A DNA stretch of 55,586 nt, from positions 1 to 55,586 of the IMG/VR virus record IMGVR_UViG_3300048838_000528; one strand, given 5' to 3'. The notes under the pieces were generated by a model, which did not search any database, had not been told where the DNA came from, and saw nothing but the letters and a program-made list of their open reading frames with translations. Shown here one piece after another: positions 1 to 55,520 of the stretch; position 1 is the stretch's first letter, and each line of letters begins with the position of its first letter. A program made the translations under genes and the position numbers. Origin of the DNA: a virus (taxonomy: Duplodnaviria > Caudoviricetes).

Positions 1-188
1 ATAAAGAAGTAAAACATATGTAAAACTGAATGACCTATAACACCGTAAAATGTATTAAGGGCTATTACATGACATTGTAAGGCGTTTTACTATAAAGCAT
101 GATAAAATACCCATGTAGACAATAAAAAGGCTTTAAAACGGATATTTCAATGTGAAACCGTTTTCATATACAAAAAACATAAAAAGCC

Positions 189-217
189 TTTACATATAAA
201 AAGCATTTTGATAAAAT
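189..217 (+). promoter_or_regulatory. sigma-A-type early promoter
   Basis: TTTACA-17 bp-TAAAAT with TG extended -10. Confidence 0.6.
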
Positions 218-406
218 GAGGGTGTCTTAAAAAAATATGAGAGCGGGTCAAGTGGTCTTTGAAAACTAAATAGCGATATCTTACAAAGTAACGGCTTATC
301 AATGAATGGTTAAGCGTCACCATTAACATGACAATGGGGTCATGGTGGTTGATTGTTCATAATACCTATTGAAAGCAAGTACAAAGTAAGCATGACACTA
401 TTGCAT

Positions 407-654
407 GATGTAATGACTTAATAAGGGCGTAAACGTTCTTAAAAAGGAGAAAACAAAAAAATGAAAGAATTTTTTAATGTTTATTTTTTCAATGGTGAAG
501 AGTGGCTTTTTACATTTTGTTATCCAATCAATGATGACAAAACGCATTACAGCCTCGCTCGTGAATTGGAAAAAATACAAAACAACGGCTTTAAATTTAA
601 AATTGAATATGTCACAAAGTAAAGGCTTTTAAGCCTTTATTAAGTCATTACATC
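407..654. repeat. 22-bp inverted repeat enclosing gene 461-622
   Basis: gatgtaatgacttaataagggc (407-428) vs gcctttattaagtcattacatc (633-654), one mismatch that is G-U compatible. Confidence 0.85.
461..622 (+). CDS. small early protein, 53 aa (MKEFFNVYFF...)
   Basis: AAGGAG RBS, ATG 461, TAA 620-622; below the ORF-track cutoff. Confidence 0.75.
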   Translation: MKEFFNVYFFNGEEWLFTFCYPINDDKTHYSLARELEKIQNNGFKFKIEYVTK

Positions 655-682
655 TTAAGAGTGCATAACATTGTAAAATGTT

Positions 683-978
683 GCACTTATGAAAGCATGA
701 GCAAAAAAACGGAGGCTTTAAAAATGAAAGTAACGGTTAAAAATTACTATTATAACGTACAAAATAATGTGAAAACGGTCGATGTGATTATAGATGTTAA
801 AAATGACGACTTGACGCAAATCGATGGTTATTTTTTCCTTAATGATAAAGACTATAAAAATAATATTTATATCGCTAAAGATATTTTAAGAAGTAAAAAC
901 ATGACGTATAAAAACTTTTTCACTTATACGATAGAAAAAACGGAAGTATAAAAAAAACGCTCATGCTTTGATAAGTGC
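683..978. repeat. 20-bp inverted repeat enclosing gene 724-951
   Basis: gcacttatgaaagcatgagc (683-702) vs gctcatgctttgataagtgc (959-978), one mismatch. Confidence 0.85.
724..951 (+). CDS. hypothetical early protein
   Basis: GGAGG RBS before ATG 724, an internal start of track ORF 661..951. Confidence 0.75.
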   Translation: MKVTVKNYYYNVQNNVKTVDVIIDVKNDDLTQIDGYFFLNDKDYKNNIYIAKDILRSKNMTYKNFFTYTIEKTEV

Positions 979-1008
979 TAAAAAGCACGGAAAGAGAGAG
1001 ACAAAAAA

Positions 1009-1107
1009 ATGAAAGACTTAAAAACAATGAAACACGAAAAAATGATTATATTGATTTACAAGTTTTTTATATTGGTTTTAGTTTTTATGGTGTTATTTAT
1101 CGGTTAA
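1009..1107 (+). CDS. 32-aa single-TM peptide (MKDLKTMKHEKMIILIYKFFILVLVFMVLFIG)
   Basis: purine-rich RBS, hydrophobic C-terminal half. Confidence 0.5.
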   Translation: MKDLKTMKHEKMIILIYKFFILVLVFMVLFIG

Positions 1108-1219
1108 GCATTGATAAAGCGGTTACAAAGGCTCTATATACAACGAGGGTATATAAAAAAACCTTAACCGCTTCAATGAGTGCTTAACACTCAAAAAAAT
1201 AAAAAAAGGAGATTTTGAA

Positions 1220-1639
1220 ATGAAAAAAATGTCACGTTTTGAAGTTTTAGAAACCGTTATAAACGGAATGAGTAGAAAAGTAAACAAAAAAGCATTAAAA
1301 AGGGCTTTAGATTTTCACAATGATAGAAAAAATTTAAACTATGCATTAAAACATTATTATGAGGATATTCATAGCATAAATAACGGTTTTAGATATTATG
1401 AATTTGTGAGTGTAAATGATTTTAATAACATTGATGAGTTTAAAACATTTTTAAAAGGTTATAATGTGAAATGGTATAAAACACCTTACAATTATAATAT
1501 GAATAATTTACAAGCAATCAAACAAAAAAACACGGGTTTTGTTATGGTTTATAGTAACGGCTACTATTCACACGGTAGTTATTTATTTGATGTAAACACG
1601 TTTATTGATGAAAACGACATCGAAGTTATGGAGGCGTAA
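1220..1639 (+). CDS. hypothetical early protein
   Basis: AAGGAG RBS, 139 aa. Confidence 0.8.
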   Translation: MKKMSRFEVLETVINGMSRKVNKKALKRALDFHNDRKNLNYALKHYYEDIHSINNGFRYYEFVSVNDFNNIDEFKTFLKGYNVKWYKTPYNYNMNNLQAIKQKNTGFVMVYSNGYYSHGSYLFDVNTFIDENDIEVMEA

Positions 1640-1653
1640 AGCCTCTTTTTTTT
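1631..1653 (+). terminator. intrinsic terminator
   Basis: gaggc-gtaaa-gcctc followed by a T run. Confidence 0.7.
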
Positions 1654-1901
1654 GGTCTTTTTTTAGAGCCCTTGAAGTTTTTTCATCAAGTTTTCAAGCC
1701 TTACTTATTTATAATTTTTATAATTATAGTGCTTATAGTTTTCTTTATAGTTTTTATAAGATAGTTTTATATAGTAGTTTTTAAGGTAGTTTATATTTAT
1801 AGTTTATTTATAATTTTTCTAAATAGTTACGTATCATAAAGTTTTCAATTTGTCAAGTAGTTTATAGTTTTTAAGACAATTTCACATAGTTCATTTTTAA
1901 T

Positions 1902-1930
1902 TTGACACGCTGAAAGTTTTTTGATAGAAT
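1902..1930 (+). promoter_or_regulatory. sigma-A-type promoter
   Basis: TTGACA-17-TAGAAT with TG extension. Confidence 0.8.
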
Positions 1931-1964
1931 TATGGCAGATGGTTTTTAATAGTGAGGTGTTAAG

Positions 1965-2339
1965 ATGTTTTCTATAAGTTTATTATATAATGATATAGTT
2001 AAGTTATATGTCAATAAAAATGATGCTATACATTTAAAAGAGCGGTCATCACGTATCAAGTTATATGACGATTACAAGTTATTAAGTGATAACTTCATAT
2101 CGTGCTTTAAAGTTGATAAAGACCACGTGAACGGTTTAGAATTACACGCTATCAATGAAAACGGTTTACTATATATTTACAATTTTAAAAGCCGTAAACT
2201 TATTACAATTTTACATGCACGCTCTGAACAATTAAAACGCTATTATAACGCTTTAGGTCTTCCAATACCTCAAAAGGTTTACAATATTATAAAAGAGGTA
2301 GAAAAGCGAAACAAGTTATATAGTTTGAATAATGTGTGA
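1965..2339 (+). CDS. conserved phage hypothetical protein
   Basis: GAGGTG RBS; VDKDH.NG.ELH...KLIT.L.AR..QL.RYY motif resembles a family of Firmicutes-phage proteins. Confidence 0.75.
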   Translation: MFSISLLYNDIVKLYVNKNDAIHLKERSSRIKLYDDYKLLSDNFISCFKVDKDHVNGLELHAINENGLLYIYNFKSRKLITILHARSEQLKRYYNALGLPIPQKVYNIIKEVEKRNKLYSLNNV

Positions 2340-2364
2340 GAAAAAACATAATTACATTTTATGA

Positions 2365-2393
2365 TTGACAACCATTTTTAAAAGTGGTAAAAT
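2365..2393 (+). promoter_or_regulatory. sigma-A-type promoter
   Basis: TTGACA-17-TAAAAT with TG extension. Confidence 0.85.
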
Positions 2394-2428
2394 TAAAGTA
2401 GATAAAAAGAAAAAGGAGTATAAAAAAA

Positions 2429-2602
2429 ATGAAAAAAATGAAAGTGTATCACGCAAAAAGTTTTTATAATTTTACGATTGATGAAAAAGATGAAAAAATG
2501 TTCTTATATGCTTTTAATGTATCGTGTTACCCAGAACATTTAATACGCAACCTAAATTATTACAATATCAATTATATTTTAGAAGTGGAGGGCAAAAAAT
2601 GA
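2429..2602 (+). CDS. 57-aa hypothetical protein
   Basis: AAGGAG RBS, ATGA overlap with the next gene. Confidence 0.7.
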   Translation: MKKMKVYHAKSFYNFTIDEKDEKMFLYAFNVSCYPEHLIRNLNYYNINYILEVEGKK

Positions 2603-2877
2603 GCAAGGACGACCATTTTATTTTAGCGTTTTATGATGAGAAAAATAGACTTTTAGATTTTGAACGGTTAAAGTTGAAAACTGCCGAAAATAGTTATAAA
2701 AGTTTATTAAAGTTTATAAAAAAATATGGTATAAAAAATTATGAAAGAGGGTTCAATAGTGGTTTAGGAAAAGCAAAAAAATTGGTTGTAAGTTTTCAAG
2801 AATATGAGCCAGAAAAAGAGAAAATTATTTTTGAAAAAAGTTACCATGATTTTTTAGAAGATTTAAACAATATGTAA
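2599..2877 (+). CDS. hypothetical protein
   Basis: GGAGG RBS, ATG 2599 within track ORF 2524..2877. Confidence 0.75.
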   Translation: MSKDDHFILAFYDEKNRLLDFERLKLKTAENSYKSLLKFIKKYGIKNYERGFNSGLGKAKKLVVSFQEYEPEKEKIIFEKSYHDFLEDLNNM

Positions 2878-2902
2878 TTTTTCACACAATTCAAAAAAAT
2901 GC

Positions 2903-2931
2903 TTGACTTACAGATTTTACAATGCTATAAT
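2903..2931 (+). promoter_or_regulatory. sigma-A-type promoter
   Basis: TTGACT-17-TATAAT with TG extension. Confidence 0.85.
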
Positions 2932-2978
2932 TAAGGTAGTTAGAAAAGAGATGTTAAACTTTAAACATAGAAAAGGAA

Positions 2979-3236
2979 ATGAAAAAAATGAAAATACAAG
3001 AAAATAGTTTTTATTTAGGTAAGAAAATTATAGCGTGTGAAAACATCATCAATTTTTCAACAAACAAAATTGTAAGGGTCAGAACACGATATTGCGGTGT
3101 GATTGAAAAAATTGAAAATGACATAGTTTATATTTATGATAAAAGCAATCCTATAAACTATCAAAATTATTCTTTAAAATATAGTGATTTTTGCAAATGG
3201 GTTTTACAAGGTTTATACAAAATTAGAACAGTATAA
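2979..3236 (+). CDS. hypothetical protein
   Basis: ORF with AAGGA RBS downstream of a promoter. Confidence 0.7.
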   Translation: MKKMKIQENSFYLGKKIIACENIINFSTNKIVRVRTRYCGVIEKIENDIVYIYDKSNPINYQNYSLKYSDFCKWVLQGLYKIRTV

Positions 3237-3262
3237 AAAATAAAAAAAGGGAGATTGAAAAA

Positions 3263-3613
3263 ATGCTTACAGTTAAGAAAGAATTAGATTTAAACGATTT
3301 TATGAGCGAGTATGAAAACATACTTCCTGAAGATTATGAAGCGTGTGAAATTATTTTTGAGGCTTTATGTGATATGATGTATGATGGTGCTGAAGATATG
3401 ACAATTAGAGATTACATTCGCTTTCAAATGCAAATTAGTACACAAAGTGAACTATTAAGCGATTACGACATTATTGATGAAGAAGAATTGAAAGACCTCG
3501 ACGAAGATGAAATAAATGAAAAAGTCGAAGACTATTTAAGTGAAAATACTTCATTGCTTGGAAGTTATGAAGATGACAACGGCGACACGGTTTATATTTA
3601 CGATGAGTTTTAA
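3263..3613 (+). CDS. very acidic early protein (DNA-mimic candidate)
   Basis: about one third Asp/Glu, only about 6 Lys/Arg. Confidence 0.75.
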   Translation: MLTVKKELDLNDFMSEYENILPEDYEACEIIFEALCDMMYDGAEDMTIRDYIRFQMQISTQSELLSDYDIIDEEELKDLDEDEINEKVEDYLSENTSLLGSYEDDNGDTVYIYDEF

Positions 3614-3712
3614 AAACAAGTTTTAAACCTTTAACAAGTGAGCCATAGTTTATATGGCTTACAATTAAGGGCTTAATGCTCTAAAAAATAAAAAGAAAAG
3701 GAAGTATTAAAA

Positions 3713-3949
3713 ATGATGATAGCACTATACAGCAAAAACAAGTTTGGAAAGTTTTATATTTGTGATTACAAAAGTAACATAGAGTTTACACATACAAACG
3801 CTTTACACCTTGCAACTGTTTTTGACACGATAACACAACGTGATGAGATTTACTACTTAAAAAATACCTTTGGTTTTAATTATAAAAGCGAAAAAGTCAC
3901 AAGTGAAAAAATTGAACAATCAAAAAACTTGAATAGAGTATATTTATAA
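3713..3949 (+). CDS. hypothetical protein
   Basis: ORF with AAGGA RBS. Confidence 0.7.
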   Translation: MMIALYSKNKFGKFYICDYKSNIEFTHTNALHLATVFDTITQRDEIYYLKNTFGFNYKSEKVTSEKIEQSKNLNRVYL

Positions 3950-3964
3950 TAGGAGGAAACAAAA

Positions 3965-4195
3965 ATGACAGACTTCACACTTTTTAATCAGACAGTTGCA
4001 AAGGTTTCACACGCTTTCAGATTTACGAAAAAACGTGATACCACATATTTACAGTTATTAGAAGCCTATGAAGTTTTAAGCGATTACGATTTTATACAGG
4101 CTTACAATTTACAAAAACGGCTCGAAAAAGGCTTACGTTTTAGAAGCGTATCACATTTACTCGATACAGTCAGAAACATACCAAAGTATTTATAG
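3965..4195 (+). CDS. hypothetical protein
   Basis: AGGAGG RBS. Confidence 0.75.
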   Translation: MTDFTLFNQTVAKVSHAFRFTKKRDTTYLQLLEAYEVLSDYDFIQAYNLQKRLEKGLRFRSVSHLLDTVRNIPKYL

Positions 4196-14498: not shown

Positions 14499-15635
14499 AT
14501 GACAAATTTAATAGTAAAAGCGTCTTTATTAGAGGAAGGTTTGATTGACGATGTTAAAAAAATGATTGACGAAAACAAAACATTATTTAGCGATGAAACC
14601 GTTGTTTTAATGGCTGACGCACACAAAGGAAAAGATGTCCCAGTTGGTTTCACAATGACTTTAAGCAAAAATATTGTTCCACCAACATTTGTTTCTTCTG
14701 ATATTGGTTGTGGTATGACTTCTTATTTATTAAACGATATAGTCATATCAAATAAAGATTTAAAAACATTTTCAATGATAGCAAAAGATATCATTCGTGT
14801 TAATAAAAGACTTGACGCAGGAAGCCTTACCGATTATGGGACATTAGGAAACGGGAATCACTTTGTTGAAATTGGAACTAACGGCAAAGACACTCTTATA
14901 ACTGTTCATAGTGGTAGCCGTTCAATCGGTGGAATGGTGTTTAAAAAACATTATGAGGAAGCAAAACAACAATTTCAACAAAAATATCATTCAGTATCAA
15001 AGGAAGAATTAGAATTGATAGAACCAAAGAAAAGACAAGAATATATTAAAAACAAGAAAAAAGAACTTATCATTGAGCCTATACCATATCTTGACTTAAA
15101 TATTTATGGTCTTGAATTATATAAAAAAGAATTAAATGAAACCATAGAAGCAGCAAGAATAAACAGAGAAAAAATATTAAGAGATGTTTATACTACGCTA
15201 TGTTCAATAAATAAAGATTATGTAACAGTAAGGACATTGATTAACACAATACATAATTATGTGGAGTTCTTAGAAGATGGAACAATGATTTTAAGAAAAG
15301 GTTCGATAAATGCTAAAGAGGGTTTAGAAGTTGTTATACCAATTAACATGAAAGATGGTATCATACTCGGAATTTCGTCAAATACTGAAAATGTAAACTT
15401 TTCATTACCTCATGGTGCTGGACGTGTGCTAAGTAGAACAAGAGCATTTGCAGAACTTGATTTAGAAACATTCAAAAAAGATATGGAAGGTATTATATCG
15501 CCGACCGTTAATCAAAATACATTAGATGAAGCACCAAGAGCATATAAAAGAATTGAAACAATACTTAATGATATAACACCATTCTTATCAAAATATGATG
15601 TATTTAAACCCATTTTTAATTTTAAAGGTGAATAG
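14499..15635 (+). CDS. rtcB: RtcB-family RNA ligase
   Basis: DAH, DIGCG, GTLGNGNHFVE, HSGSR, HNY, RKG, HGAGR, DEAP.AYK motifs. Confidence 0.93.
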   Translation: MTNLIVKASLLEEGLIDDVKKMIDENKTLFSDETVVLMADAHKGKDVPVGFTMTLSKNIVPPTFVSSDIGCGMTSYLLNDIVISNKDLKTFSMIAKDIIRVNKRLDAGSLTDYGTLGNGNHFVEIGTNGKDTLITVHSGSRSIGGMVFKKHYEEAKQQFQQKYHSVSKEELELIEPKKRQEYIKNKKKELIIEPIPYLDLNIYGLELYKKELNETIEAARINREKILRDVYTTLCSINKDYVTVRTLINTIHNYVEFLEDGTMILRKGSINAKEGLEVVIPINMKDGIILGISSNTENVNFSLPHGAGRVLSRTRAFAELDLETFKKDMEGIISPTVNQNTLDEAPRAYKRIETILNDITPFLSKYDVFKPIFNFKGE

Positions 15636-53509: not shown

Positions 53510-53538
53510 ATCATAGCATATTAAAATAAAGTTGTCAA
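53510..53538 (-). promoter_or_regulatory. sigma-A-type promoter of the sRNA
   Basis: minus-strand TTGACA-17-TATGAT with TG extension. Confidence 0.8.
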
Positions 53539-53585
53539 GTAATATGTATTTGCACCATATAATTGCCTATTACAACATTAAGTGT

Positions 53586-54782: not shown

Positions 54783-54811
54783 ATTATACCACACATAACA
54801 CAACTTGTCAA
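54783..54811 (-). promoter_or_regulatory. sigma-A-type promoter, first of the minus arm
   Basis: minus-strand TTGACA-17-TATAAT with TG extension. Confidence 0.88.
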
Positions 54812-54955
54812 GCCATACGGTTTAGCACCACATCATGTTATCAAAGGCAATTAAATGGTGCAAAATCAAACTCATTATATTTATGGCAAATGCGAATAAA
54901 ATAAAAAATATGCAATTGCCGTCATCACATACAAACCATATCGTGCCATTTTAGC

Positions 54956-55520
54956 CCGTTTAAGACCGTTTTATTTTCAATGCGAATATTTTATCACGAA
55001 ATACATCAAAACATGTTACAAGACCTATTACGTGCCTTAAAACGCATATCAACATTCCACAACAAAACAAACCTTGTGTGTGCGTGTGTGTATGTGCGGT
55101 TTGTTTTTCCCTGCCCACTCCCTATGCAGAAAACAACATCAACCCTACGGGGGGGATGCTTTAGTATAGTAAAGCGTTACACTATTAAACCATTACAACG
55201 TTATCATATCAACGTATTATCTGAATACATTCTACTATCGGTAGAATTACACTATTTATAATATATATAAAGTCTACTATTGGTAGATACGATATAATAG
55301 CACTCTACCTGAACGACTGCCAAGCACTCACGATGTAAGACTGCTAAAATGAAAGTCTTTCATGTAACTATCATGATGTTTCATGTAAAATATAATATAT
55401 ATAAATAAACACTACCATTGTATACTATGTAATATATAGCATGCGTAAAACATGCTTAAAATCGGTTTTAAAGCGTTTTTAATCTTCCATGATAATTATT
55501 ATGCACTATGTAATAAAAAT
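54956..55520. repeat. two copies of a degenerate 60-90 bp element; third copy inverted at 54-142
   Basis: shared pattern c(c/g)gttt..a...c.tttt...tat(t/c)a...aaaa. Confidence 0.55.

What the first reader, a model, noticed from the sequence alone, without database searches (positions are those of the whole stretch)
407..978. First early genes are each enclosed by their own long inverted repeat
Gene 461-622 is bracketed by a 22-bp inverted repeat (407-428/633-654) and gene 724-951 by a different 20-bp inverted repeat (683-702/959-978), each with one mismatch. In RNA each whole ORF would be the loop of a long stem, as in pre-rRNA. Each arm also overlaps a competing short hairpin (422-441, 620-639, 661-686, 975-988) that could refold after cleavage. 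Inference: RNase III-type excision into stabilised monocistronic or pseudo-circular mRNAs. Local RNase III hairpins are known in the T7 and SPO1/SP82 early regions, but gene-enclosing stems are unusual. A DNA-level cassette or inversion role is the alternative.
Basis: partly seen in the sequence, partly recalled or inferred. Interest (0 to 1): 0.75.

Follow-up and report, generated by a model that had tools for sequence, protein, structure and literature searches.

The report
Phage early genes enclosed by RNA stems
The first two small genes of an uncultured low-GC phage each sit between two complementary flanks that would close the gene into a loop in the messenger RNA, most likely so the message can be cut out or shielded by its paired ends, but no RNA data or related sequences could be obtained to prove it.

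Summary
Both inverted repeats are real. IR1 is 407-433/628-654 (27 nt, 93%) and IR2 is 683-702/959-978 (20 nt, 95%). With one right-end repeat, they are the three strongest inverted repeats of the 55.6-kb genome. They score 21, 18 and 17; 40 shuffled genomes scored at most 17.

Each bracket encloses one ORF with its ribosome-binding site. Among 98 crudely called genes, only genes 1 and 2 show this enclosure. In the predicted transcript the stems have pair probabilities of 0.92 or more. Their size and span fall within mapped long-range RNase III targets of B. subtilis (PMC11780869).

The adjoining leader hairpin (273-404) keeps its pairing in the only relative, through 9 compensatory changes.

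The best reading is RNA-level processing or stability clamps (0.45 for RNase III cutting). The DNA-level rivals got little support: no recombinase, no other arm copies, no target duplications.

This scan has noted the same layout in other phages. Those are AI notes, used as leads only.

The parts
189..217 (+). Candidate sigma-70-type promoter of the first rightward operon (TTTACA-17-TAAAAT with a TG before the second hexamer)
   Evidence: One search gives 10 of 12 matches. The scan as a whole found no more sites than shuffles (19 against 18.9), so this is a candidate only. A TTCACA-17-TAAAAT lies at a similar place before the homologous leader in L004, read by eye.
273..404 (+). Long irregular leader hairpin (about 38 bp) ending 2 nt before the IR1 left arm
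   Evidence: RNAalifold with the one relative (L004) predicts 45 pairs, all paired in both sequences, 9 with changes on both sides. Controls: slid versions give 0-2 such pairs and 33-45% paired cells; 2 of 500 shuffles reach the observed values. Independent single-sequence folds give the same architecture.
407..433 (+). IR1 left arm (5' flank of gene 1)
   Evidence: Pair probability is 0.92-1.00 for the 22-bp core in transcript 225-1660. The region is partly conserved in L004.
422..441 (+). Local hairpin just before the gene 1 ribosome-binding site; it competes with the inner part of IR1
   Evidence: A hairpin at the same place in L004 has a different 3' half.
461..622 (+). Gene 1, a 53-aa protein of unknown function, in the loop of IR1
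   Evidence: Homologues are P0005 (55-56% identity) and P0007-P0010 (34-38%). No Pfam or PHROG family.
618..641 (+). Local 10-bp hairpin that holds the gene 1 stop codon; it competes with the inner part of the IR1 right arm
   Evidence: -10.2 kcal/mol. It is not followed by a T run and was not called as a terminator.
628..654 (+). IR1 right arm (3' flank of gene 1), starting 5 nt after the stop codon
661..682 (+). Spacer with a small hairpin (667-682) between the two long stems
   Evidence: Pair probability 0.77-0.96.
683..702 (+). IR2 left arm (5' flank of gene 2)
   Evidence: Pair probability is 0.98 or more for 19 of 20 positions.
724..951 (+). Gene 2, a 75-aa ORF with a GGAGG ribosome-binding site, in the loop of IR2; no homologue found
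   Evidence: Only itself was found among 5.8 billion proteins. No family. No atlas hit.
959..978 (+). IR2 right arm (3' flank of gene 2), starting 7 nt after the stop codon
975..988 (+). Small hairpin overlapping the last 4 nt of the IR2 right arm
   Evidence: -4.7 kcal/mol.
1009..1107 (+). Gene 3, a 32-aa peptide with a hydrophobic C-terminal half; not enclosed by a clean stem
   Evidence: translation. Not among the 12 strongest enclosures.
1103..1190 (+). Long local hairpin between genes 3 and 4
   Evidence: -31.9 kcal/mol, z -5.7, 0 of 200 shuffles as stable.
1220..1639 (+). Gene 4, 139 aa, the last gene of the predicted operon
   Evidence: Homologues are P0003 (55%) and P0004 (35%).
1630..1653 (+). 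Only terminator-like site on the + strand in the first 3 kb: a hairpin followed by a T run

Best explanation
The two repeats act in the RNA, not the DNA.

Proposed layout. One early transcript starts at the promoter near 189-217 and runs to the terminator at 1630-1653. It folds into a chain of abutting helices:
- a long leader hairpin (273-404);
- a 22-27 bp long-range helix that loops out gene 1 (407-433 with 628-654);
- a small spacer hairpin;
- a 20-bp long-range helix that loops out gene 2 (683-702 with 959-978).

Proposed action. These helices have the size of substrates of the host double-strand RNase (RNase III). Cutting them would release each gene as its own short message. The two ends of that message would stay paired, or would refold into the local end hairpins (422-441, 618-641). 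This would shield both ends from exonucleases, as with ribosomal RNA precursors and T7 early messages.

Status of each step:
- Shown: the repeats, their non-random strength, their placement, the predicted fold, and covariation in the adjoining leader.
- Inferred: co-transcription of both arms, cleavage by RNase III, and stabilisation.
For: 1. The repeats are far beyond chance. They score 21 and 17, against at most 17 in 40 shuffled genomes, with 0.05 repeats of 17 or more expected per genome.

2. The placement is exact. Each left arm ends 12 nt (IR1) or 8 nt (IR2) before the ribosome-binding site. Each right arm starts 5 or 7 nt after the stop codon. Initiating and terminating ribosomes would therefore leave most of the helix intact. 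With the ORFs forced single-stranded, 20 of 27 IR1 pairs and 14 of 20 IR2 pairs remain in the best fold.

3. Enclosure is specific. Among 98 crudely called genes, upstream/downstream duplex energies of genes 1 and 2 (-45.1 and -36.9 kcal/mol) rank first and second. Only 0.011% and 0.12% of mismatched gene pairs are as low. The third gene (-32.3) is within noise.

4. Both helices are in the minimum-energy fold of 220-1220. Their pair probabilities are 0.92-1.00 in transcript 225-1660. Regions 395-665 and 655-1000 fold with z-scores of -5.7 and -4.5.

5. No strong promoter and no terminator-like site lies between the arms.

6. The one IR1 'mismatch' inside the 22-nt core is G-T. This is a G-U pair only on the sense strand.

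7. The leader hairpin 2 nt upstream is kept in the only relative through 9 compensatory pairs out of 45. Slid controls give 0-2. RNA structure is therefore under selection in this transcript.

8. The size fits known substrates. An idealised RNase III substrate is 22 bp (PMC3867540, passages). B. subtilis RNase III cuts long-range intramolecular duplexes of 10-36 bp with up to 505 nt between the cuts (PMC11780869 section 24).

9. After a hypothetical mid-stem cut, the 3' hairpin 618-641 forms in the best fold (10 of 10 pairs), or a 15-bp clamp stays, depending on the cut position.
Against: - No RNA data of any kind.
- No covariation test of the two stems. The only relative's contig ends 25-45 nt into its first gene. 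The contigs encoding the gene 1 and gene 4 homologues could not be fetched.
- The host is unknown, so presence of RNase III is assumed. The phage encodes none.
- The promoter and the operon limits rest on a consensus scan that found no more sites than shuffles.
- The third strong repeat of this genome (53549-53584/54829-54864) lies outside the predicted transcription unit, and its second arm is missing in the relative. Long inverted repeats can therefore arise here without an obvious RNA role.
- A form with only a 13-bp outer helix plus the two local hairpins is about as stable as the full IR1 stem (-33.8 against -29.3 kcal/mol when nothing else is folded). The full 22-27 bp helix may therefore not be the dominant form.
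- IR2's single mismatch is G/G and says nothing about strand.
Confidence: 0.45

Rival explanations
1. The helices form in the RNA but are not cut by RNase III. They act as 5'/3'-UTR clamps. These would hide the message ends or nearby cleavage sites from RNase J1, RNase Y and 3' exonucleases, or bring the stop codon next to the start for ribosome recycling. The B. subtilis hbs mRNA works in a similar way.
For: The structural evidence is the same as for the best explanation. A 14-bp 5'/3'-UTR interaction modulates RNase Y cleavage in hbs (PMC5737220, abstract). The form with a 13-bp outer helix and two local hairpins is as stable as the full stem. That helix is short for an idealised 22-bp substrate of the E. 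coli enzyme (PMC3867540).
Against: A perfect 22-bp helix is longer than a mere clamp needs, and matches the idealised RNase III substrate length. In a polycistronic transcript the ends are not at the arms unless something cuts there.
Confidence: 0.2
2. The repeats are DNA-level by-products of how small gene cassettes were acquired or shuffled: inverted duplications or recombination scars at module borders. They have no function in the RNA.
For: Genes 1 and 2 are poorly conserved cargo. Gene 2 has no homologue. The relative L004 starts its operon with a different N-terminus behind a homologous leader. The right-end repeat brackets a whole promoter-to-terminator module, and its second arm is absent from L004. 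This looks like a recent inverted copy of a promoter-upstream segment.
Against: No target-site duplication flanks either pair. No other copy of either arm was found in the window, in viral contigs, or, for IR1, in 185,579 species genomes. This reading does not explain why both pairs sit exactly outside the ribosome-binding site and the stop codon, or why they abut each other and the conserved leader hairpin.
Confidence: 0.15
3. Each pair of arms is the crossover site of an invertible DNA segment, or a pair of protein-binding sites that loop the DNA. Either would switch gene 1 and gene 2 on or off.
For: Arms of 20-27 bp in inverted orientation are the layout of invertase sites. The phage has a RecT-like protein (weak Pfam match, E 3.9e-5) that could recombine short homologies.
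Against: The window has no serine or tyrosine recombinase; the controls ring in 12 and 14 of 14 genomes. The two pairs are unrelated in sequence, so two different proteins would be needed. Inversion would only detach each gene from its promoter. No promoter lies inside either segment. Reads to look for both orientations were not available.
Confidence: 0.05
4. The repeats are chance matches in AT-rich intergenic DNA.
For: IR2's score (17) was reached in 2 of 40 shuffled genomes.
Against: IR1's score (21) was never approached, and 0.05 repeats of 17 or more are expected per genome against 3 seen. Two neighbouring genes are bracketed in the same exact way. Pattern searches for the arms expect 0.00-0.01 matches by chance.
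Confidence: 0.02

Closest known systems
RNase III processing stems that flank 16S and 23S rRNA in bacterial rrn precursors (PMC6582327, abstract)
   Same: Two complementary flanks hundreds of nucleotides apart close a whole functional unit into a loop. The stems stand back to back on one polycistronic precursor. The helix is about two turns long.
   Different: Here the loop holds a small protein-coding ORF with its ribosome-binding site, on a phage early mRNA. Cleavage is not shown.
Long-range intramolecular RNase III duplexes in B. subtilis mRNAs (PMC11780869, section 24 read)
   Same: These are mRNA duplexes of 10-36 bp with up to 505 nt between the two cuts. IR1 (22-27 bp, 194-nt loop) and IR2 (20 bp, 256-nt loop) fall inside this range. 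The setting is low-GC Gram-positive-like, judged here from the promoters and ribosome-binding sites.
   Different: In the section I read, the mapped host duplexes are not described as bracketing one ORF exactly. Here both arms are intergenic and enclose exactly one gene each.
RNase III sites in T7 and SP82 early polycistronic mRNA (PMC3867540 passages; PMC4838370 introduction passage citing Panganiban and Whiteley 1983)
   Same: Phage early polycistronic messages are cut by the host RNase III between genes. The leftover hairpins can stabilise 3' ends.
   Different: To my recollection those sites are local intercistronic hairpins, not stems whose arms lie on either side of a gene. SPO1 was not checked.
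5'/3'-UTR pairing in hbs (PMC5737220, abstract) and icaR (PMC3868564, title and start of abstract)
   Same: The two untranslated ends of one ORF pair across the whole coding region, and this affects ribonuclease action.
   Different: The hbs pairing is 14 bp and modulates RNase Y. The icaR pairing covers the ribosome-binding site, as I recall (the listing did not show it). Here the ribosome-binding sites are left free, the helices are longer, and there are two in tandem.
5'-3' long-distance interaction of type I toxin mRNAs (hok, aapA; PMC6733600 passages)
   Same: The whole ORF is enclosed by end-to-end pairing. Local metastable hairpins form first and compete with the long-range helix, as hairpins 422-441 and 618-641 do here.
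   Different: There the long-range helix sequesters the ribosome-binding site and keeps a toxic hydrophobic peptide silent. Here the ribosome-binding sites are outside the arms, and genes 1 and 2 are hydrophilic.

Membership tests
RNase III processing stems (rRNA-type flanking helices; phage early mRNA sites) | Regular double-stranded RNA of about two helical turns (about 20-22 bp) | tested here: met
   IR1 has 22 contiguous pairs including one G-U, then a mismatch and 4 more pairs. IR2 has 8 + 11 pairs around one G/G mismatch. The reference length of 22 bp comes from PMC3867540. The 10-36 bp range in B. subtilis comes.
RNase III processing stems (rRNA-type flanking helices; phage early mRNA sites) | Both arms lie on one transcript | tested here: inconclusive
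   A candidate promoter lies at 189-217. The only + strand terminator-like site is at 1630-1646, and no strong promoter lies between. This is a consensus scan only, and its overall count equals the shuffle expectation.
RNase III processing stems (rRNA-type flanking helices; phage early mRNA sites) | RNase III-dependent cuts on both strands of the helix with a 2-nt 3' overhang | not testable with these tools
   No sequencing run was listed.
RNase III processing stems (rRNA-type flanking helices; phage early mRNA sites) | Pairing kept in relatives by compensatory changes | not testable with these tools
Only the adjoining leader hairpin could be tested, and it covaries.
RNase III processing stems (rRNA-type flanking helices; phage early mRNA sites) | An RNase III enzyme is available in the infected cell | not testable with these tools
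   The host is unknown. There is no PF14622 match in the phage.
Type I toxin mRNA with a 5'-3' long-distance interaction (hok, aapA) | The long-range helix sequesters the ribosome-binding site | tested here: not met
   GGAG 446-449 and GGAGG 711-715 lie outside arms 407-433 and 683-702.
Type I toxin mRNA with a 5'-3' long-distance interaction (hok, aapA) | A small hydrophobic toxic peptide | tested here: not met
   The translations of genes 1 and 2 are hydrophilic. Only gene 3, which is not enclosed, is hydrophobic.
Type I toxin mRNA with a 5'-3' long-distance interaction (hok, aapA) | A cis-encoded antisense RNA antitoxin | tested here: inconclusive
   Only weak (9 of 12) minus-strand promoter-like sites lie in 700-1000, at chance level.
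MITE or IS-like mobile cassette with terminal inverted repeats | Terminal inverted repeats | tested here: met
MITE or IS-like mobile cassette with terminal inverted repeats | Target-site duplication directly outside the repeats | tested here: not met
   The flanks differ: TGCAT / TTAAG at IR1 and ATGTT / TAAAA at IR2.
MITE or IS-like mobile cassette with terminal inverted repeats | Several dispersed copies | tested here: not met
   No further copy was found in the window with up to 3 mismatches. Exact-match scans found none in viral contigs or, for the IR1 arm, in genome contigs. Diverged copies elsewhere would be missed by the exact scans.
Invertible DNA segment | A site-specific recombinase gene nearby | tested here: not met
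   No PF00239 or PF00589 match in the whole record.
Invertible DNA segment | Both orientations present in the population | not testable with these tools
   No run was listed.

The most novel reading that the evidence does not exclude
Stem-clamped single-gene messages may be a general, so far undescribed way in which phages issue their very first genes. Each ORF would be released from the early transcript with its two ends paired, a pseudo-circular mRNA that host exonucleases or RNA-targeting defences cannot enter. This low-GC phage would extend the layout beyond the soil and sediment phages (two of them called actinobacterial-type) where this scan noted it. In the boldest form, an endonuclease that leaves cyclic-phosphate ends cuts the stems, and the phage's own RtcB ligase (14499-15635) closes the loops into true circular mRNAs, as archaea do with pre-rRNA (recalled, not checked here).
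Probability: 0.07. Interest if true: 0.85.

Novelty: new variant of a known kind. Interest (0 to 1): 0.55.

Why it matters
If the stems work as read, this phage applies the logic of ribosomal RNA processing to protein-coding messages. One early transcript would be split into single-gene units whose ends protect each other. That would be a compact, sequence-encoded way to set the stability and yield of the first proteins made after infection. Such proteins are usually the host-takeover and anti-defence factors.

It would also give a simple, portable design for insulating genes in synthetic operons.

My three searches of open-access papers found no description of ORF-enclosing stems in phage early mRNAs. 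The parts are known separately: long-range RNase III duplexes, 5'/3'-UTR pairing, and T7-type intercistronic sites.

Here there are only two such stems and no RNA evidence. The case is suggestive rather than shown.

Tried and rejected
Relatives by DNA:
- Megablast and blastn of 1-3000 against GenBank phages found nothing.

Relatives by protein:
- Gene 2 and gene 4 in viral contigs: none.
- Gene 4 alignment in metagenome contigs: none.
- Gene 1 alignment in viral and genome contigs: none.
- tblastn of gene 1 and P0010 against phages: none.
- The capsid and terminase searches gave one useful relative, L004 (78-82% identity, an 11.3-kb contig), and a 6.2-kb fragment, L005.
- L004 bridges the window's two ends but stops 25-45 nt into its first gene.
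- Scans for conserved leader blocks found only that same contig again.

Reads: no sequencing run was listed for 200-1700, and no RNA holder was listed.

Known RNA families: none in 1-4000 at E up to 1.

Gene function: no Pfam or PHROG family for genes 1-4. The atlas gave no usable lead. The weak match of gene 1 to repeats of a 3684-aa surface protein, P0006, was not pursued.

Ideas considered and dropped:
- Genome-wide design. Rejected: only genes 1 and 2 stand out among 98 genes.
- An outer stem around the whole operon. The pairing of the gene 1 upstream region with the gene 4 downstream region (-36.3 kcal/mol) is a scattered duplex that includes an A-run/U-run stretch, not a helix.
- Enclosure of gene 3. 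Only AU-rich pairing between its leader and its own coding 3' end appears in the fold, so it was not counted.
- A shared operator motif. The arms of the three repeats are unrelated, and each is unique to its pair.
- A promoter inside or next to the arms. None reaches the scan threshold. Weaker look-alikes read by eye were not counted.
- An alternative genetic code. TGA ends 31 of 98 called genes, so table 11 was kept.
Full report
What the window is.
- It is a whole IMG/VR virus record of 55,586 bp, classed 'linear' and estimated 100% complete.
- GC is 27% at the left end.
- Genes run rightward on the + strand to about 31.4 kb and leftward on the - strand from there. This follows from the ORF list and the skew.
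- It encodes a portal, a major capsid protein, an RtcB ligase and a weak RecT-like match.
- It has no serine or tyrosine recombinase, no tRNA and no RNase III.
- TGA is a stop codon.
- It has no DNA relative among GenBank phages. Its portal finds only 21-26% identical proteins there.

- The repeat finder reports IR1 at 407-433/628-654 (27 nt, 93%) and IR2 at 683-702/959-978 (20 nt, 95%).
- Read base by base, IR1 has 22 contiguous pairs if the G425-T636 position is read as a G-U pair in + strand RNA. A G/A mismatch and four more A-T pairs follow.
- IR2 is 8 + 11 pairs around a G/G mismatch.
- In my own ungapped scan of the whole window (loops of 30-1500 nt), IR1 scores 21 and IR2 scores 17. A third repeat at the right end scores 18. 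These are the three best in the genome.
- Forty block-wise dinucleotide shuffles gave best scores of 13-17. A score of 17 was reached in 2 of 40 and 18 in none. On average 0.05 repeats of 17 or more are expected per genome.
- Each arm occurs only as its own pair.

Placement.
- Gene 1 (461-622) has GGAG 11 nt before its ATG. Gene 2 (724-951) has GGAGG 8 nt before its ATG.
- The left arms end 12 and 8 nt before these ribosome-binding sites. The right arms begin 5 and 7 nt after the stop codons.
- The IR1 right arm ends at 654. A small hairpin (667-682) follows, and the IR2 left arm begins at 683.
- I made a crude call of 98 genes. For each gene I computed the duplex energy between 70 nt upstream and 70 nt downstream. 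Genes 1 and 2 rank first and second (-45.1 and -36.9 kcal/mol). Only 0.011% and 0.12% of mismatched upstream/downstream combinations are as low. The next gene (-32.3, 0.4%) is what 98 trials give by chance.
- Enclosure is therefore a property of the first two genes only. It is not a genome-wide habit.

Fold.
- The minimum-energy fold of 220-1220 contains both long helices.
- Regions 395-665 and 655-1000 fold much better than shuffles (z -5.7 and -4.5).
- In the presumed transcript 225-1660, pair probabilities are 0.92-1.00 for the 22-bp core of IR1 and 0.98-1.00 for 19 of 20 IR2 positions.
- The isolated duplexes are worth -33.1 and -30.2 kcal/mol.
- One caution: a form with a 13-bp outer helix plus the two local hairpins is about as stable as the bare full IR1 stem (-33.8 against -29.3 kcal/mol). 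The outer 13-15 pairs are the safest part.

Transcription context (inferred).
- The best promoter-like site upstream is 189-217 (10 of 12 matches, with TG).
- The only + strand terminator-like site in the first 3 kb is 1630-1646.
- The next strong promoters are at 1902, 2365 and 2903.
- The scan found as many promoter-like sites as in shuffles. This is therefore a plausible map, not proof.
- 'Early' is inferred from position and promoter type.

The genes.
- Gene 1 is a real small protein family. P0005 (55-56% identity) and a cluster P0007-P0010 (34-38%) share 11 invariant positions with it.
- Gene 2 has no homologue among 5.8 billion proteins.
- Gene 4 has two homologues.
- None has a Pfam or PHROG family.

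The one relative.
- The terminase and capsid searches found L004, an 11.3-kb contig (82% and 78% identity).
- It bridges the two ends of the window. Its reverse strand 251-25 aligns with window 255-466. Its 1380-1580 aligns with window 54960-54760 on the minus strand.
- The leader is therefore homologous, but the contig stops 25-45 nt into a first gene whose N-terminus differs from gene 1. The partner of the left arm cannot be seen.
- What can be tested is the long hairpin just upstream (window 273-404). RNAalifold predicts 45 pairs, all formed in both sequences, 9 of them through changes on both sides.
- With every 3' partner slid by 1-3 columns, only 33-45% of cells pair and 0-2 pairs show double changes. 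Only 2 of 500 shuffles reach the observed values.
- Single-sequence folds give the same architecture.
- With two sequences, and a structure derived from them, this is moderate evidence. It does show that RNA (or single-strand) structure is kept in this leader.
- The small hairpin before the ribosome-binding site is also kept in L004, with a different 3' half.

A caution from the right end.
- The third strong repeat (53549-53584/54829-54864, 36 nt, 83%) encloses three small minus-strand genes.
- Its upstream arm lies 18 nt before the -35 of the promoter at 54811. Its downstream arm lies 11 nt before the -35 of the promoter at 53538.
- The downstream arm also sits right after a G+C-rich hairpin with a T8 run. 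I read that hairpin by eye; the scan did not call it.
- The arms therefore bracket a promoter-to-terminator module and would mostly not be transcribed together.
- In L004 the upstream arm region is homologous, but no complementary partner exists.
- This repeat looks like a DNA-level event or a pair of promoter-upstream sites. It shows that a long inverted repeat in this genome need not mean an RNA stem.

Comparison with what is known.
- RNase III cuts two large stems flanking 16S and 23S rRNA (PMC6582327, abstract).
- An idealised substrate is 22 bp. T7's roughly 7000-nt early precursor has five processing signals. Single-strand cuts can leave stabilising 3' hairpins (PMC3867540, passages).
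- SP82 early RNA holds B. subtilis RNase III targets (PMC4838370, introduction passage).
- In B. subtilis, 34 of 38 structured co-occurring cleavage sites lie 2 bp apart on opposite sides of duplexes of 10-36 bp, with up to 505 nt between them. [quoted passage not shown] IR1 and IR2 fit these numbers.
- Pairing of the two UTRs across an ORF is known for hbs (14 bp, RNase Y; PMC5737220, abstract), for icaR (PMC3868564, title and start of abstract), and for type I toxin mRNAs, where local metastable hairpins give way to a 5'-3' helix that hides the ribosome-binding site (PMC6733600, passages).
- The present case differs from the toxin and icaR cases because the ribosome-binding sites stay free. 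It differs from T7 and SP82 because the arms lie on either side of a gene.
- Three searches of open-access full texts for such a layout in phage early mRNAs found nothing relevant. Subscription journals and supplements were not searched.

Earlier notes of this scan.
- A word search returned eight follow-up reports on other phage genomes. They describe the same layout: small early genes, each in a loop closed by its own long helix. Several report compensatory changes among relatives.
- These are unchecked AI notes, and I did not test them. They agree with the reading I had stated beforehand, and they pointed me to PMC6582327, whose abstract I read.
- A note on this genome (1103-1192 and 3626-3682) describes long local stems. 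I confirmed the folds.

Verdict.
- The most likely reading is that the two repeats are RNA helices that loop out genes 1 and 2 on the first early transcript and serve processing or stability. I put RNase III cutting at 0.45 and an uncut clamp at 0.20.
- DNA-level origins without an RNA role (0.15), inversion or protein-binding sites (0.05) and chance (0.02) are less likely.
- The decisive data are missing: transcript ends, and covariation of the arms in the contigs that encode gene 1 homologues.

Noticed in passing
window 273-404 (and L004 100-245, minus strand): A long irregular hairpin in the leader before gene 1 is kept in the only relative: 45 pairs, 9 with compensatory changes. It has no Rfam match. 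It may be a leader processing site or a 5' stabiliser in its own right.
   Followed up: partly
window 53549-53584 and 54829-54864: A 36-nt, 83% inverted repeat is the second strongest in the genome. It brackets a promoter-to-terminator module of three small minus-strand genes. Each arm sits just upstream of the -35 of a strong promoter. The second arm is absent from the relative L004.
   Followed up: partly
window 55586/1 junction; L004 1-1600: The relative's contig runs without a break from the homologue of the right-end genes into the homologue of the left-end leader. The two ends of this 'linear' record are therefore neighbours in a relative. About 0.9-1.1 kb of non-coding, repeat-rich DNA lies between two divergent early regions. 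It includes a GT/CA-rich run near 55070-55100 that L004 also has near 1225-1250 (by eye).
   Followed up: partly
window 95-102, 388-395, 693-700, 961-968: Four of the six copies of AAGCATGA in the window lie in the first 1 kb. Two of them are the IR2 arms. The other two lie in the non-coding leader region. The meaning is unknown.
   Followed up: no
window 1103-1190 and 3628-3671: There are long local hairpins between early genes (z -5.7 and -4.25). They may be local counterparts of the gene-enclosing stems.
   Followed up: partly
window 1009-1107: Gene 3 is a 32-aa peptide with a charged N-terminus and a hydrophobic C-terminal half. It could be a small membrane peptide. It is not enclosed by a stem.
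   Followed up: no
window 14499-15635: The phage encodes an RtcB RNA ligase (Pfam E 6.3e-44). This is of interest for any RNA cutting and rejoining during infection.
   Followed up: no
window 68-104 and 664-700: There is a diverged direct repeat (24 nt at 75%, extendable with small gaps by eye) between a promoter-like stretch at the far left and the hairpin plus the IR2 left arm. It may be chance.
   Followed up: no
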